15,492 bases of DNA from Synechococcales cyanobacterium (GCA_035285565.1 JAYKGX010000423.1:1-15492), one strand, 5' to 3'; counted from the first letter of the stretch, positions 353 to 15,492 are shown. Numbers and translations: made by a program. Notes: generated from the sequence alone by a model not told the origin.

Positions 353-439
353 TCGGTTTCCAAAAACTACGCCTCGGTTTCCAAGAACTACAAAAACTAC
401 AAAAACTACTTGACAGTTCCGAAAAATGCAATGTAGTAT
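353..439 (+). promoter_or_regulatory. Plus-strand promoter (-35 TTGACA 410-415, 18 nt, -10 TAGTAT 434-439) preceded by direct repeats
   Basis: Two 18-bp direct repeats, TCGGTTTCCAAAAACTAC (353-370) and TCGGTTTCCAAGAACTAC (374-391). These are followed by AAAAACTAC at 392-400 and again at 401-409, then the canonical -35 hexamer TTGACA. The -10 region is duplicated as ATGTAGTATATGTAGTATAA. Confidence 0.35.
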
Positions 440-520
440 ATGTAGTATAAAGAAAGCAACCGGAGCAAAACCATGCTAACCAGCATACTCCCAGGCTTCC
501 CGAAAGCACCGAAGTCTAAA

Positions 521-654
521 GAGTCTCTGACCTGGTTGACTGACTAATCTCTTCGTTCATTGCGTTGATCCGCGCCGGAATGGAATTCGGCGCGAACAGA
601 CAACGAAGCGAAGGGACTTCCAAGACTTTTGTCAGTCAATCAGGTCTCTGACTG
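521..654. repeat. Long nested imperfect palindrome (cruciform, structured RNA or MITE-like element)
   Basis: Outer helix 523-544 pairs with 631-652: 16 contiguous bp with one G-U, plus 3 more bp beyond a 3x3 internal loop. An inner helix cttcgtt (551-557) pairs with aacgaag (602-608). An apical 7-bp helix CGCGCCG (571-577) pairs with CGGCGCG (588-594) around a 10-nt loop gaatggaatt. All pairings were checked by hand. Confidence 0.6.
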
Positions 655-851
655 TAAAACCCACGACTTCCGCACTTGAGTTATCCAGCTCAGCTTCCGA
701 AGCCTTTCGATCGCAGCGGCTCAACCAGTCCAAACCGCGATCGCACACTATCGAAGTCCGAGAACGCATGTTACAGATCCATCTTCTAGAGTGGCGTTAT
801 CCCTGGTAATTCGCCCGATCAGATCTTAAGTCACCGCATCTTTTCTGAACC

Positions 852-957: not shown

Positions 958-1033
958 GAGGATGTAGCTCAGCCCGGTCTAGAGCGCCTGTCTGTCGAAC
1001 AGGAGGTCGTGGGTTCAAATCCCATCATCCTCG
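958..1033 (+). tRNA. tRNA-Asp (anticodon GUC), canonical cloverleaf, no encoded CCA
   Basis: Hand fold. Acceptor GAGGATG pairs with CATCCTC (7 bp). D-stem GCTC/GAGC with loop agcccGGtcta. Anticodon stem CCTGT/ACAGG with loop CTGTCGA (anticodon GTC at 994-996). Variable region AGGTC. T-stem GTGGG/CCCAT with loop TTCAAAT. Discriminator G1033. Confidence 0.85.
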
Positions 1034-1047
1034 CCTGATCCAATTTT

Positions 1048-1120
1048 AGCCCTGTGGTGTAACTGGAAACATCCTTCACTTTGAATGAAGAGAGTCTAGG
1101 TTCGAGACCTGGCAGGGCTG
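1048..1120 (+). tRNA. tRNA-Gln-like (anticodon UUG) with A1-U72 and a weak D-stem
   Basis: Acceptor AGCCCTG pairs with CAGGGCT (7 bp). D-stem GTGT/ACAT includes a G-U. Anticodon stem CTTCA/TGAAG with loop CTTTGAA (TTG at 1081-1083, A37). Variable region AGAGT. T-stem CTAGG/CCTGG with one G-U and loop TTCGAGA. Discriminator G1120. Confidence 0.65.
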
Positions 1121-1163: not shown

Positions 1164-1237
1164 GCTCCTGTGGCGAAACGGAAAACGCACCTAGCTTAAA
1201 CCTAGTTTAATTGTGAGTTCGACTCTCACCAGGAGTA
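1164..1237 (+). tRNA. Non-canonical tRNA with Leu anticodon UAA but a short (class-I) variable region
   Basis: Acceptor GCTCCTG pairs with CAGGAGT (G1-U72 wobble). D-stem GCG(A)/(A)CGC with loop aacGGaaa. Anticodon stem (C)CTAG/CTAG(T) with loop CTTAAAC (TAA at 1197-1199, A37). Variable region of 6 nt, TTAATT. T-stem GTGAG/CTCAC with loop TTCGACT. Discriminator A1237. Confidence 0.55.
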
Positions 1238-1281
1238 TGGAAAATGTGAGTACAGTTCACGCGCGATCGCATTTTCCGCAA

Positions 1282-1356
1282 GCTCTCGTAGTCCAATTGG
1301 CAGAGGCACTGGTCTTAGAAACCAGGGGTTGTGGGTTCCGACTCCCACCGAGAGTA
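1282..1356 (+). tRNA. Non-canonical tRNA with Leu anticodon UAG, short variable region and an 8-nt T-loop
   Basis: Acceptor GCTCTCG pairs with CGAGAGT (G1-U72 wobble). D-stem GTC(C)/(A)GGC with loop aattGGcag. Perfect anticodon stem CTGGT/ACCAG with loop CTTAGAA (TAG at 1316-1318). Variable region GGGTT. T-stem GTGGG/CCCAC pairs only if the T-loop is 8 nt (TTCCGACT). Discriminator A1356. Confidence 0.55.
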
Positions 1357-1378: not shown

Positions 1379-1456
1379 GGCGGAGATAGAGCTACGGTGC
1401 GCTCGGCAGTCTCATAAGCTGTCACCTACCAGGTTCAACTCCTGGCTCCGCAACCA
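1379..1456 (+). tRNA. tRNA with CAU anticodon (Met or Ile-lysidine type) with genomically encoded 3' CCA
   Basis: Acceptor GGCGGAG pairs with CTCCGCA (6 bp plus a G1/A72 mismatch). Three nucleotides (ATA) lie between the acceptor and the D-stem. D-stem GAGC/GCTC with loop tacGGtgc. Anticodon stem GCAGT/GCTGT has two G-U pairs, with loop CTCATAA (CAT at 1413-1415). Variable region of 6 nt. T-stem CCAGG/CCTGG with loop TTCAACT. Discriminator A1453 followed by CCA at 1454-1456. Confidence 0.55.
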
Positions 1457-3284: not shown

Positions 3285-3782
3285 CTAGGAACCGATGACA
3301 TATTTCCGCCATTCTTGATTTGCACCGTTTTTAACGTATTTCGCCACCTCAAAGTAGAGACTGCTATGCGGCTTATGGGGTTGCTTGCGCAGGGGCATAG
3401 CAGCTTCTTTTGGGGTGCGATTTCCTTTCTTGACATTACAGCGGACGCAGGCGATGACGATATTTTCCCAACTGTCTTGCCCCCCACGCGATCGCGGCAC
3501 CACGTGATCCAAGGTCAGTTCATCTCCGGTGTAACCACAATATTGACAACTATGCCCATCTCGGTTGAGCAAATTCTTGCGCGTTAGGGCTATTTCTGCA
3601 TAGGGAACCCGCACATATTGGCGCAACCGAATGACAGAAGGCAAGGGGAAATCGGAATAAATAAACTTCCCATTATGCTCTAACTGTTCAGCTTTGCCTT
3701 TTAACAGAAGTACAACCGCCCTGCGCCAACTGGTGATATTCAGCGGTTCGTAGGAGGCATTGAGCACCAGAACCTTACTCAT
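3285..3782 (-). CDS. HNH endonuclease, small conserved cyanobacterial type
   Basis: HNH motif DHVVPRSRGG...W.N...AC..CN..KG. The start was chosen at the internal ATG MSKVLVLNASYEP (3782), giving 166 aa. The longest ORF reaches 3878 but begins with TTG and a non-conserved-looking leader. The gene is divergent from alr. Confidence 0.75.
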   Translation of the reverse strand: MSKVLVLNASYEPLNITSWRRAVVLLLKGKAEQLEHNGKFIYSDFPLPSVIRLRQYVRVPYAEIALTRKNLLNRDGHSCQYCGYTGDELTLDHVVPRSRGGQDSWENIVIACVRCNVKKGNRTPKEAAMPLRKQPHKPHSSLYFEVAKYVKNGANQEWRKYVIGS

Positions 3783-3995
3783 TCCGTTCAAGAAGAGGTA
3801 ACGCATTATTTCACACTTTAACACAAATTCAAACTTTCCTACGGAGTTTTGCCTTTTTCGTACTCCGGGAGACATCAATTCCCCAGAAGTTCGCTAAATT
3901 ATTGGGACGTGATTCCGGATGGGCAGACTAAATCTGCGATCGCGGATCACAGATCGTGGTGTGTGAATTCTGGTGTGTTTGACAGGAGTGGGGAT

Positions 3996-14428: not shown

Positions 14429-14875
14429 TTAACTCACTTGTCGTTCCACGGTTGCCTCTAGCGCACTGGTTAGGTAATGACCTGCCATAATTCCACTAGA
14501 GAGGTAATAACGCTGATCGGCAATGCGGTAAAGTGTTTCAAAACCACTGCGGCGCTGCTTATCCCCCAAGGCCCAATAGCGTTGAATAATGGATTCTGGA
14601 GCAATCCAGCCTTCGCCCTCTACCCGCCCTAGATCACTATGCTGTAGCACAAAGGTATAGCGCCGATCGCCCATGTCAAATCGACCACGATACTGGAAGT
14701 CAATATTGGCTCGTTCGCTCTCGGGAAACACCAACCGCATGACCATGGTAAACCACTCATCCCGGCTCCAGTTGATTAGAATTTTTCCTTTGACAGGGAT
14801 TGGGTTACCATTGCGTTCCAGCCAGCTTCCCTGCAAAAGCCATATGCCAGGTTCCATGAGAAAGGTGTGGGTCAC
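14429..14875 (-). CDS. Hypothetical protein (148 aa)
   Basis: A clean ORF with a GTG start, or an ATG at 14848 (MEPGIW...). It is co-oriented with anmK upstream and is followed by a terminator-like hairpin. It has no family-defining motif I recognise. There is a weak resemblance to small beta-barrel (lipocalin/nitrobindin-like) proteins in LLQGSWLE. Confidence 0.5.
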   Translation of the reverse strand: MTHTFLMEPGIWLLQGSWLERNGNPIPVKGKILINWSRDEWFTMVMRLVFPESERANIDFQYRGRFDMGDRRYTFVLQHSDLGRVEGEGWIAPESIIQRYWALGDKQRRSGFETLYRIADQRYYLSSGIMAGHYLTSALEATVERQVS

Positions 14876-14930: not shown

Positions 14931-15492
14931 CTATACTACACAGAGAATTTCCCCTAAAAGCACGGTTTTCATCGCCCCCGTCACTTCTGGAAGATTACCA
15001 GGAATCGCCAATTTCCGCCAGTAGGCCAGCACAGCAAAGGCGATCGCTTCTTTGAAATCTCCATTGAGGCCCACTTCATCGGTAGTGCGCACTTGGGTTT
15101 GGGGGAGATGGGCTTGAATACGATGCCACAGATAGCGATTCCGGCTGCCACCCCCACAGAGTAAGACTTCCTGGGGTAATTGGGGTAAAAACTGACGGTA
15201 GCTGTTTGCGATCGTGGCGGCGGTGAGTTCCGTGAGGGTGGCGAGGATATCGGCATCGGAGAGTTGCAGTGCCTGGGCAGCTTGTAGACAATGATTGAGG
15301 TATTCCACTCCGAAACCTTCGCGTCCGGTGGATTTGGGGGGTGATTGCTGGAAAAAGGGATGTTGTAACCAATCGGCAATTAATTCTAAGTTAGGTTTGC
15401 CACTCGCAGCCCAAGCCCCATCGCAATCGTAGGTGAACTGCCCCTGGCTGAGGTGCTGCACGGCTAGATCGATTAAGACATTACCGGGTCCG
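14931..15492 (-). CDS. anmK: Anhydro-N-acetylmuramic acid kinase, C-terminal portion (5' end beyond the window)
   Basis: The translation continues to the window edge ([18 protein letters not shown]...). Motifs LLCGGGSRN and PKSTGRE and an AnmK-like C-terminus are present. The stop is at 14931. Confidence 0.85.

What the first reader, a model, noticed from the sequence alone, without database searches (positions are those of the whole stretch)
1164..1356. Two Leu-anticodon tRNAs (UAA and UAG) built on a class-I scaffold (no long variable arm), both with A73
Bacterial tRNA-Leu is a class-II tRNA with a long variable arm. Here two adjacent genes have unambiguous 5-bp anticodon stems and 7-nt loops presenting UAA and UAG with A37, but variable regions of only 5-6 nt. 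Both carry the discriminator A73, which is the major LeuRS identity element in E. coli. This recalls organellar or engineered short-arm Leu tRNAs. Alternatively they could be charged by a different synthetase and mistranslate Leu codons, or they could be decoys or pseudogenes. Cyanobacterial trnL-UAA normally carries a group I intron in its anticodon loop; this copy is intronless.
Basis: seen in the sequence. Interest (0 to 1): 0.75.

Follow-up and report, generated by a model that had tools for sequence, protein, structure and literature searches.

The report
Short-arm leucine tRNAs in truncated tRNA array
The two short leucine tRNA genes are real, but they belong to a widespread lineage of "armless" leucine tRNAs carried by mobile tRNA arrays and phages, and sit here in a cut-down, probably stress-inducible five-gene copy of such an array in a filamentous cyanobacterium.

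Summary
Window 1164-1237 and 1282-1356 are class-I-shaped tRNAs with anticodons UAA and UAG, A37, A73 and variable regions of 6 and 5 nt (ARAGORN; Rfam tRNA 54.1 and 48.5 bits). They are not isolated oddities. They are genes 3 and 4 of a five-gene cluster: Asp-GUC, Gln-UUG, Leu-UAA, Leu-UAG, Met-CAU (958-1456). This cluster is homologous to the long tRNA arrays of Nostocales plasmids, including the Anabaena 7120 trn operon, and to phage arrays. In those arrays leucine tRNAs are almost always short-armed (69/69 in cyanobacterial-type metagenomic arrays), while Ser and Tyr tRNAs keep long arms. With anticodons masked, the nearest relatives of both genes are leucine tRNAs. Both carry LeuRS elements (A14, A15-U48, G18G19, A73, G1.U72). 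Upstream lies a TTGACA-18-TAGTAT promoter with two TGTAGTAT boxes, the TrcR operator of the Anabaena trn operon. The cluster is absent from the syntenic site in 80 related genomes, so it was acquired. Type-I tRNA-Leu charged by LeuRS is already documented in Streptomyces coelicolor, and short-loop tRNA-Leu has been noted in Mycobacterium clusters. Verdict: a new member of a known kind, of moderate interest. Both copies carry rare defects, so decay is not excluded.

The parts
362..409 (+). Repeated AAAAACTAC / AGAACTAC units (362-370, 384-391, 392-400, 401-409) just upstream of the -35 box. ACTACA is the reverse complement of TGTAGT, so these are possible extra operator half-sites in inverted orientation.
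   Evidence: Read directly from the sequence; repeat family D1. An operator role is inferred only.
410..448 (+). Promoter-operator: -35 TTGACA 410-415, 18-nt spacer, -10 TAGTAT 434-439. Two tandem TGTAGTAT boxes lie at 432-439 and 441-448. This 8-mer is the one footprinted by the repressor TrcR at the Anabaena trn operon promoter.
   Evidence: The promoter scan gives 10/12 consensus matches. TGTAGTAT occurs 3 times in the window against 0.11 expected, with 0/200 shuffles reaching 3. The same TTGACA-17/18-TGTAGTAT-(A)TGTAGT layout lies upstream of the arrays in Nostoc 7120 and 7524 and in metagenomic arrays. TrcR binding to TGTAGTAT is reported in PMC10272220.
520..655 (+). Long imperfect hairpin in the about 510-nt leader between the promoter and the first tRNA. 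It may be an inserted element or a processing or attenuation structure. It is absent from the Nostoc arrays, whose leaders are about 90-120 nt.
   Evidence: Inverted repeat I1. RNA fold gives -63.9 kcal/mol, z = -7.67, and 0/200 shuffles fold as well. The function is unknown.
958..1033 (+). tRNA-Asp(GUC), the first gene of the cluster, as in most cyanobacterial long arrays.
   Evidence: ARAGORN; Rfam 70.5 bits. The best anticodon-masked match is Asp-GUC of the Nostoc 7524 array. Asp-GUC is first in 13 of 19 HIP1-rich arrays.
1048..1120 (+). tRNA-Gln(UUG).
   Evidence: ARAGORN; Rfam 56.2 bits. The best match is Gln-UUG of the Nostoc 7524 array.
1164..1237 (+). Type-I (short variable arm) tRNA-Leu(UAA), 74 nt. 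It has G1.U72, A73, a 3-bp Leu-type D stem, A14, A15, U48, G18G19, a 6-nt variable region and a C27.U43 mismatch. No CCA is encoded.
   Evidence: alignments A1 and A2. Nearest neighbours are Leu tRNAs, 20 of the top 25.
1239..1277 (+). Spacer hairpin between the two Leu genes; it contains a HIP1 site (GCGATCGC).
   Evidence: Inverted repeat I19. Fold -14.7 kcal/mol, z = -2.3. A role in processing is speculative.
1282..1356 (+). Type-I tRNA-Leu(UAG), 75 nt. It has G1.U72, A73, A14, A15, U48, G18G19, a perfect 5-bp anticodon stem, a 5-nt variable region and an 8-nt T loop (UUCCGACU). No CCA is encoded.
   Evidence: It is 82% identical to the annotated 75-nt tRNA-Leu(CUA codon) of Gordonia phage Phendrix. 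Leu tRNAs are 21 of its top 25 neighbours. Its 8-nt T loop is the only one among 114 family members.
1380..1456 (+). tRNA(CAU), annotated Met, with encoded CCA. It is the last gene of the cluster and its acceptor stem is irregular.
   Evidence: ARAGORN; Rfam 34.5 bits. It is 83% identical to the CAU tRNA that follows Leu-UAA in the Anabaena 7120 trn operon. The same Leu-UAA, Leu-UAG, Met-CAU order occurs in metagenomic array L232.

Best explanation
The two genes are type-I (short variable arm) leucine tRNAs. They belong to the lineage carried by horizontally mobile long tRNA arrays ('L-arrays', such as the Anabaena 7120 trn operon) and by phage tRNA clusters.

In this window they sit in a truncated, chromosomally integrated array: promoter, Asp-GUC, then an internal deletion, then Gln-UUG, Leu-UAA, Leu-UAG, Met-CAU. 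The host is a Leptolyngbyales-type cyanobacterium.

Shown here:
- the cloverleaf shape of both genes;
- the Leu-type body and LeuRS elements (A73, A14, A15-U48, G18G19, G1.U72);
- homology of all five genes to array tRNAs;
- a promoter carrying the TrcR operator sequence;
- absence of the cluster from related genomes.

Inferred:
- The cluster is silent under normal growth because a TrcR-like repressor sits on the -10 region, and it is transcribed as one precursor under translational stress.
- The two tRNAs are leucylated by the host LeuRS, which reads neither the anticodon nor (necessarily) the variable arm.
- They then act as supernumerary decoders of UUR and CUN leucine codons alongside the housekeeping class-II tRNA-Leu.
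For: Shape and significance.

Homology to arrays:
- blastn hits to Nostoc, Calothrix and Tolypothrix plasmids, including pCC7120delta, and to actinophage tRNA-Leu genes.
- ARAGORN finds four short Leu tRNAs in the 7120 trn operon, two in the 7524 array and two in phage Phendrix.
- Alignments A1 and A2 show a shared Leu-type D arm, U72 and A73.

Family breadth:
- 56 metagenomic arrays in which 146/156 Leu tRNAs are 79 nt or shorter, while 53/53 Ser and 28/29 Tyr are 80 nt or longer.
- 69/69 Leu tRNAs are short in HIP1-rich arrays.

Selection as tRNAs:
- 114 unique type-I Leu sequences at 62% mean identity keep 99% of stem cells paired.
- 19 of 20 pairs show double compensatory changes.
- A73 100%, A15 97%, G18 100%, U48 89%.
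- The formal control on A3 gives 99.0% paired against 61.5% in shuffles, 0/500.

Leu body: with anticodons masked, Leu tRNAs are 20-21 of the top 25 neighbours, including a long-arm Leu.

Regulation: TTGACA-18-TAGTAT with two TGTAGTAT boxes. The architecture matches 7120 and 7524 and many metagenomic arrays. TrcR footprints TGTAGTAT at the trn promoter (PMC10272220).

Function of homologues:
- 23 of 26 trn-operon tRNAs are detected, aminoacylated in vivo and found in polysomes (PMC8421152).
- Four of the 26 are short Leu tRNAs and only three are dead, so at least one type-I Leu is charged in a cyanobacterium.
- ScoLeuRS and human mitochondrial LeuRS leucylate a bacterial type-I tRNA-Leu (PMC6614811).

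Acquisition: none of 80 related genomes has tRNAs upstream of the SWIM-protein orthologue, including 9 with conserved SWIM-TIM synteny.
Against: - No expression or charging data exist for this locus.
- E. coli LeuRS could not leucylate the S. coelicolor type-I tRNA-Leu (PMC6614811), so charging depends on the LeuRS. The host LeuRS is unknown.
- Each copy has a feature that is rare in its family. C27.U43 is one of 4 non-pairs among 114 at that position. The 8-nt T loop is 1 of 114. The 6-nt variable region occurs in 8 of 114.
- The array is reduced to 5 genes.
- The leader is about 400 nt longer than in Nostoc and holds an inserted hairpin.
- These points fit relaxed selection.
- The TrcR link rests on sequence identity of an 8-mer and on promoter layout. 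No trcR gene lies in the window.
- The viral and metagenomic family samples were selected by patterns that required U72-A73 or a particular anticodon arm. Frequencies of those features are therefore biased.
Confidence: 0.7

Rival explanations
1. The two genes are decaying remnants. The cluster is a broken fragment of an acquired array that no longer yields functional tRNAs, or yields poorly folding, uncharged ones.
For: - Only 5 of the usual 20-33 genes remain.
- The cluster is absent from 80 related genomes, so it is not conserved.
- The 8-nt T loop is unique among 114 family members, and the C27.U43 mismatch and 6-nt variable loop are rare.
- The leader is long and carries an inserted hairpin.
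- The MFE folds are not cloverleaves, and the UAG gene has z = -0.5.
- In Anabaena 3 of 26 array genes are dead. One of them is likely Leu-GAG, which has a broken T stem.
Against: - All five genes exceed the Rfam gathering score with full-length alignments.
- The acceptor stems, T stems and the D-arm tertiary nucleotides A14, A15, G18, G19 and U48 are intact.
- The promoter and both operator boxes are perfect matches.
- An identical copy was assembled independently from SRR13425444.
Confidence: 0.22
2. They act as mistranslators or non-translational tRNAs. Either a synthetase other than LeuRS charges them, inserting another amino acid at Leu codons, or they serve as decoys or substrates outside translation.
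For: - Aberrant acid-gel mobility of two other operonic tRNAs (Phe, Ile) in Anabaena raised the possibility of misacylation, and the authors do not exclude non-canonical roles (PMC8421152).
- Array tRNAs have been proposed as an anti-defence system (PMC12803027).
Against: - The body is Leu-type, not another isotype.
- There is no G3.U70 (Ala identity): both genes have U3-A70.
- There is no long arm or G73 (Ser identity).
- By established identity rules, synthetases that read the anticodon should reject UAA and UAG.
- No mistranslation was detected in Anabaena for the one case tested.
Confidence: 0.06

Closest known systems
Anabaena/Nostoc sp. PCC 7120 trn operon (L-array on plasmid delta; Santamaria-Gomez et al. 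2021, PMC8421152; TrcR control, PMC10272220)
   Same: - Member tRNAs are homologous: Met-CAU 83% identical, and Gln, Asp and Leu also related.
- All of its Leu tRNAs are short-armed.
- Asp-GUC is the first gene.
- The promoter has TTGACA, a TAGTAT -10 box and tandem TGTAGT(A/G)T boxes.
- A related HNH endonuclease gene lies nearby (39% identity).
   Different: - 5 genes here rather than 26.
- Chromosomal here rather than on a plasmid.
- The leader is about 510 nt with a large hairpin, against about 90 nt.
- The Leu-UAA/Leu-UAG order differs. The window's order matches metagenomic array L232 instead.
- Neither induction nor charging has been tested here.
Type-I tRNA-Leu(CAA) of Streptomyces coelicolor (Fan et al. 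2019, PMC6614811)
   Same: It is a bacterial tRNA-Leu with a 5-nt variable loop that coexists with class-II tRNA-Leu in one cell. It has A73 and the U8-A14 pair, and is leucylated by a bacterial LeuRS.
   Different: - That tRNA is an essential housekeeping isoacceptor for UUG.
- The window's genes are supernumerary UAA and UAG isoacceptors in an acquired array.
- Direct homology to the Streptomyces gene was not tested here.
- E. coli LeuRS does not charge the Streptomyces tRNA, so the result does not transfer automatically to the cyanobacterial enzyme.
Cluster-encoded short-variable-loop tRNA-Leu(TAG) in Mycobacterium tRNA gene clusters and actinophage tRNA arrays (Behra et al. 2019, PMC6582537; Gordonia phage Phendrix)
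   Same: - A short-arm Leu-UAG inside a horizontally acquired tRNA cluster, next to normal long-arm chromosomal copies.
- An HNH endonuclease is associated with the cluster.
- The Phendrix Leu-UAG is 82% identical to the window's UAG gene.
   Different: The host phylum differs, and no TrcR-type promoter is described for those clusters.
Animal mitochondrial type-I tRNA-Leu
   Same: A short variable region with A73.
   Different: - It is organellar and structurally relaxed, and a dedicated mitochondrial LeuRS charges it.
- The window's genes keep a canonical elbow (G18G19, T54-A58 context) and a bacterial Leu-type D arm.
- Nothing suggests a direct relationship.

Membership tests
Type-I (short variable arm) tRNA-Leu | Cloverleaf with a 4-6 nt variable region (no extra stem-loop) and a Leu anticodon | tested here: met
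   ARAGORN and Rfam alignments give variable regions of 6 nt (UAA) and 5 nt (UAG). In the family 104 of 114 members have 5 nt.
Type-I (short variable arm) tRNA-Leu | Leu-type body and LeuRS identity elements: A73, A14 (U8-A14), A15-U48, G18G19 (list from PMC6614811) | tested here: met
   All are present in both genes. Family frequencies are A73 100%, A15 97%, G18 100%, U48 89%. Anticodon-masked neighbours are Leu tRNAs.
Type-I (short variable arm) tRNA-Leu | Leucylation by LeuRS | not testable with these tools
   Only indirect evidence exists. At least one of the four short Leu tRNAs of the Anabaena trn operon must be aminoacylated in vivo, because 23 of 26 genes are charged and 4 are short Leu genes. 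ScoLeuRS charges a type-I Leu tRNA and E. coli LeuRS does not.
Cyanobacterial long tRNA array (L-array / trn operon) | At least 20 tRNA genes at 2 or more per kb (array-unit definition of Tran et al., PMC4758250) | tested here: not met
   There are only 5 tRNA genes in 499 bp. The density criterion is met and the number is not. The cluster is therefore best called a truncated derivative rather than an array unit.
Cyanobacterial long tRNA array (L-array / trn operon) | Member tRNAs homologous to those of known arrays, in related order | tested here: met
   Shown by blastn and anticodon-masked best hits to the Nostoc 7120 and 7524 arrays. Array L232 has the same terminal order: Gln-UUG, Leu-UAA, Leu-UAG, Met-CAU.
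Cyanobacterial long tRNA array (L-array / trn operon) | Promoter with the TrcR box TGTAGTAT overlapping the -10 box, upstream of an Asp-GUC first gene | tested here: met
   The TrcR footprint is reported in PMC10272220. Binding by the host protein has not been tested.
Cyanobacterial long tRNA array (L-array / trn operon) | Supernumerary and horizontally acquired (absent from close relatives) | tested here: met
   None of the 80 related loci has tRNAs upstream of the SWIM orthologue. Whether the host also has housekeeping class-II tRNA-Leu genes could not be checked, because the host genome is not in the collection.
Cyanobacterial long tRNA array (L-array / trn operon) | Silent under normal growth and induced by translational stress | not testable with these tools
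   Needs RNA data from the organism.
Canonical bacterial class-II tRNA-Leu | Long variable arm (more than 10 nt, with a stem) | tested here: not met
   No alternative fold gives a long arm.
Housekeeping cyanobacterial trnL-UAA with group I intron | Group I intron in the anticodon loop | tested here: not met
   The anticodon loop is an uninterrupted 7 nt. No intron family appears in the Rfam scans of the window.

The most novel reading that the evidence does not exclude
Loss of the variable arm in array- and phage-borne leucine tRNAs may be an adaptation rather than an accident. It is specific to Leu, since Ser and Tyr keep their arms in the same arrays. On this reading the armless Leu tRNAs stay chargeable by LeuRS but escape tRNA-targeting toxins or nucleases, or other stress damage, that recognise class-II tRNA-Leu. 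Cyanobacteria would then have domesticated them under TrcR control as a backup leucine-decoding set. The five-gene cluster here would be a minimised version retaining only the isoacceptors that matter.
Probability: 0.12. Interest if true: 0.7.

Novelty: new member of a known kind. Interest (0 to 1): 0.38.

Why it matters
Textbooks state that bacterial tRNA-Leu is class II, and the one biochemical study of a bacterial type-I tRNA-Leu called it rare.

The searches here give a different picture:
- Short-arm tRNA-Leu is the rule in mobile tRNA arrays and common in phage contigs.
- tRNA-Ser and tRNA-Tyr in the same arrays keep their long arms.

This locus adds three things: a chromosomal copy, a very reduced copy, and one that keeps the TrcR-type stress promoter. 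It is a compact natural test case for two questions. Can cyanobacterial LeuRS charge armless tRNA-Leu? Which array tRNAs are worth keeping?

There is also a practical caution. Annotation pipelines and isotype classifiers should not treat such genes as errors or mistranslators without checking this lineage.

Tried and rejected
- **Another isotype with a mutated anticodon** (for example Val-UAC to Leu-UAG). The Leu model R1 scored the 7120 Val gene at 70.6 bits, which prompted the check. Anticodon-masked nearest-neighbour analysis puts Leu first for both genes and Val far behind. Rejected.
- **Antisense Rfam hit 'Plastid-ycf2 5'UTR'** on 1164-1238(-). It scores 35.5 bits against a gathering score of 65.7. 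It reflects the tRNA-like shape and is not a real match.
- **Single-sequence MFE folding**. It did not give cloverleaves. This is uninformative for tRNAs, so I used comparative evidence instead.
- **Synteny search for the host or orthologous clusters**. The best relative is only 69% identical in the flanking protein, and no orthologous cluster was found. The host genome is not among the GTDB representatives. I therefore could not check for housekeeping tRNA-Leu genes or for trcR.
- **Upstream region 1-957.** It has no homologue in any fetched locus apart from a 27-nt match.
- **Puerto-Galan and Vioque 2012** (first description of the Anabaena cluster). The paper is not held.
- **Supplement of PMC8421152.** It is not held, so I could not learn which three trn genes are the dead ones.
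- **HNH endonuclease at 3285-3878(-).** It is related to the HNH gene next to the Nostoc arrays. Two housekeeping genes separate it from the cluster, so I do not count it as part of the element.

Full report
**1. The observation**

ARAGORN finds five tRNA genes on the + strand between 958 and 1456: Asp-GUC, Gln-UUG, Leu-UAA, Leu-UAG and Met-CAU. The Rfam tRNA covariance model aligns 1164-1237 (54.1 bits) and 1282-1356 (48.5 bits) from model position 1 to 71. Both exceed the 29-bit gathering score. These are the finding's exact coordinates.

Both genes have a 7-nt anticodon loop with U33 and A37. The anticodons are UAA (1197-1199) and UAG (1316-1318). The variable regions are 6 and 5 nt, and both have A73.

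- The UAA gene has a C27.U43 mismatch, so its anticodon stem has 4 standard pairs.
- The UAG gene has an 8-nt T loop.
- Both have a G1.U72 wobble pair.

A half-tRNA pattern that matches both genes is expected 0.00 times in shuffles of the window. Single-sequence energy folding does not recover the cloverleaf. It also gives no fold with a long arm or a different anticodon.

**2. Context**

The flanking genes are ordinary chromosomal ones: a SWIM-like protein, triosephosphate isomerase, alanine racemase, TatC, a Sua5/YrdC protein and ClpP. HIP1 sites (GCGATCGC) are frequent, so the host is a cyanobacterium.

The flanking SWIM-like protein finds 533 relatives in the genome collection. The best 80 are Leptolyngbyales-type genomes (Phormidesmis, Alkalinema, Stenomitos, Leptolyngbya) at 59-69% identity. 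None of the 80 loci has a tRNA gene upstream of the orthologue. This includes nine loci that keep the SWIM-TIM gene pair, with TIM up to 88% identical in Alkalinema. The tRNA cluster and its roughly 950-bp upstream region are therefore a lineage-specific insertion. The host species itself is not in the collection. An identical copy of the cluster lies on a short contig assembled from SRR13425444.

**3. Relatives of the cluster**

blastn of 940-1470 hits plasmids of Nostoc, Calothrix and Tolypothrix, including pCC7120delta, which carries the Anabaena 7120 trn operon. It also hits annotated tRNA-Leu genes of Gordonia, Rhodococcus, Streptomyces and Myxococcus phages.

ARAGORN results on the fetched loci:
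- The 7120 operon holds four Leu genes (CAA, UAG, GAG, UAA), all 75-78 nt.
- The Nostoc 7524 array holds short UAG and UAA genes.
- Phage Phendrix holds 75-nt Leu-UAG and Leu-CAA genes, plus an 82-nt Leu-UAA with a miniature arm.

The alignment shows one family. Its D arm is GUGGCG-AAUUGG-AGACGC, of the kind seen in canonical tRNA-Leu. A14, A15 and U48 are invariant, position 72 is almost always U, and A73 is constant.

With anticodons masked, Leu tRNAs make up 20 and 21 of the 25 nearest neighbours of the two window genes. The best match of the UAA gene is the long-arm Phendrix Leu. The window's Asp, Gln and Met genes find their best matches in the Nostoc 7524 and 7120 arrays. The bodies are therefore Leu bodies, and the whole cluster derives from an array.

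**4. How common the family is**

ARAGORN finds 142 Leu tRNAs of 79 nt or less in these contigs.

A second pattern, specific for the UAG anticodon arm plus a 5-nt variable region, hit 56 metagenomic contigs. Nearly all are long tRNA arrays, with a median of 16 and a maximum of 33 tRNAs. In these arrays:
- 146 of 156 Leu tRNAs are 79 nt or shorter.
- All 53 Ser and 28 of 29 Tyr tRNAs are 80 nt or longer.
- In the 19 arrays with two or more HIP1 sites, all 69 Leu tRNAs, across five anticodons, are short.

A covariance model of the family retrieved 114 unique type-I Leu sequences with 62% mean pairwise identity. In these, 99% of stem cells are standard pairs and 19 of 20 pairs show changes on both sides. 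The tool's own control on the full 150-row alignment gives 99.0% paired against 61.5% in shuffles, and a covariation score of 0.984 against 0.221 (0/500).

These samples were chosen by patterns that fixed U72-A73 or the anticodon arm, so frequencies of those features are biased. In the CAA and GAG members, which the patterns could not select, A73 is 13/13 and G1.U72 is 7/13.

**5. Promoter**

Positions 410-439 read TTGACA, an 18-nt spacer, then TAGTAT. The 8-mer TGTAGTAT occurs twice in tandem, at 432-439 and 441-448. The window has three copies against 0.11 expected.

In Anabaena 7120 the RHH repressor TrcR footprints TGTAGTAT where it overlaps the TAGTAT -10 box of the trn promoter. Deleting trcR derepresses the operon (PMC10272220).

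The 7120 and 7524 promoters have the same layout: TTGACA, 17-18 nt, TGTAGTAT, 2 nt, ATGTAGTG. Many metagenomic arrays have one or two same-strand boxes 80-300 nt upstream of an Asp-GUC first gene. The window keeps both this promoter and the Asp-GUC first gene.

Array L232 ends with Gln-UUG, Leu-UAA, Leu-UAG, Met-CAU, which is the window's order. The window therefore looks like an array that lost the genes between Asp and Gln-UUG, and those after Met.

The leader is unusually long, about 510 nt. It contains a 130-nt hairpin (-63.9 kcal/mol, z = -7.7) that the Nostoc arrays lack.

**6. Likely mechanism**

By analogy with Anabaena, I infer the following:
- The cluster is repressed by a TrcR homologue and transcribed under translational stress.
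- The precursor is processed. Four of the genes lack an encoded CCA, and only the CAU tRNA has one.
- The two tRNAs are leucylated and used at UUR and CUN codons.

Support from the literature:
- In Anabaena, 23 of the 26 trn-operon tRNAs are detected, aminoacylated in vivo and present in polysomes (PMC8421152). Four of the 26 are short Leu genes and only three genes are dead, so at least one type-I Leu is charged.
- Identity elements listed for bacterial LeuRS are A73, A14, A15-U48, the G18G19 elbow contacts and the tertiary core. The E. coli LeuRS-tRNA-Leu(UAA) structure involves a G1-U72 pair (PMC6614811). Both window genes have all of these.
- S. coelicolor LeuRS and human mitochondrial LeuRS leucylate a bacterial type-I tRNA-Leu. 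Removing the arm of a type-II tRNA-Leu does not harm its charging by ScoLeuRS.

By elimination, from established identity rules, AlaRS needs G3.U70 and SerRS needs the long arm. Most other synthetases read anticodon bases that UAA and UAG do not offer.

**7. Reasons for caution**

- E. coli LeuRS failed to charge the Streptomyces type-I tRNA, so charging depends on the enzyme.
- Both window genes carry features that are rare in the family. The 8-nt T loop is 1 of 114. The C27.U43 mismatch is one of 4 non-pairs at that position. The 6-nt variable region occurs in 8 of 114.
- The array is truncated and not conserved in relatives.
- Decay after acquisition is therefore a serious rival, which I put at about 0.2.
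- Mischarging or a non-translational role has no positive support here.

**8. Comparison with what is known**

- Type-I tRNA-Leu coexisting with type-II in one bacterial cell was described and characterised in S. coelicolor (PMC6614811).
- A cluster-encoded tRNA-Leu(TAG) with a short variable loop, next to an HNH endonuclease gene, was noted in Mycobacterium (PMC6582537).
- A survey of cyanobacterial tRNAs tabulated tRNA-Leu variable loops of 5-7 nt without comment (PMC6933170).
- The Anabaena trn operon papers do not mention the short arms in their text.

The kind is therefore known. What is new here is a chromosomal five-gene derivative with an intact TrcR-type promoter in a Leptolyngbyales-type host. 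As a by-product, the searches show that short arms are the rule for Leu, but not for Ser or Tyr, in these arrays. The cluster fails the numerical definition of an array unit (at least 20 genes), so I file it as a truncated derivative.

**9. Verdict**

The genes are real and correctly read. They are best explained as type-I leucine tRNAs of the mobile-array and phage lineage, in a reduced and probably stress-inducible operon. Classification confidence is about 0.9. Confidence that they are functional leucine acceptors is about 0.6-0.7. Novelty: new member of a known kind. Interest: moderate.

Noticed in passing
window 520-655: A 130-nt imperfect hairpin lies in the leader between the promoter and tRNA-Asp (-63.9 kcal/mol, z = -7.7). 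A 27-nt piece (622-648) matches unrelated places in the Alkalinema and Stenomitos loci at 92%, which hints at a small repeated element.
   Followed up: partly
window 14933-14940 (- strand): A third exact TGTAGTAT box lies at the very end of the anmK gene. It is about 60 nt upstream of a 148-aa ORF (14429-14875, -) with no Pfam match. This could be another TrcR-type target or a chance match.
   Followed up: partly
window 1380-1456: The CAU tRNA is the only gene of the cluster with an encoded CCA. Its acceptor stem is irregular: either A7 is unpaired in a 6-bp stem, or there is a G1.A72 mismatch with 3 nt before the D stem. I did not determine whether it is an elongator Met or an Ile2 (lysidine) tRNA. 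Its 7120 homologue is 83% identical.
   Followed up: partly
window 3285-3878 (- strand): This HNH endonuclease gene is 39% identical (E 5e-35) to the HNH gene immediately upstream of the trn operon in Nostoc 7120, and Nostoc 7524 has one in the same place. It was not found in the 6-kb flanks of any of the 80 related loci, so it may also have been acquired. SWIM and TIM separate it from the tRNA cluster.
   Followed up: partly
metagenomic and viral array loci L205-L260, L005-L124: Within the same arrays, Leu tRNAs have lost the long variable arm (146/156 short), while Ser (53/53) and Tyr (28/29) keep theirs. The loss is specific to Leu.
   Followed up: partly
L003 2862-2933; also L218 and L255: ARAGORN calls a 72-73-nt tRNA with a CUA (amber) anticodon, labelled 'Pyl', inside cyanobacterial tRNA arrays. 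This is a possible suppressor tRNA.
   Followed up: no
L003 4091-4191: The family model finds a Leu-CAA gene in the Nostoc 7524 array that is 101 nt long because of an insertion of about 27 nt. ARAGORN does not call it.
   Followed up: no
window 658-671 vs 1002-1015: A 14-nt stretch of the leader is 93% complementary to the variable-region and T-stem part of tRNA-Asp. It could be a remnant of an inverted tRNA fragment or a chance match.
   Followed up: no
window 958-1033: The Asp-GUC tRNA has G37 and A38 in its anticodon loop (CUGUCGA).
   Followed up: no
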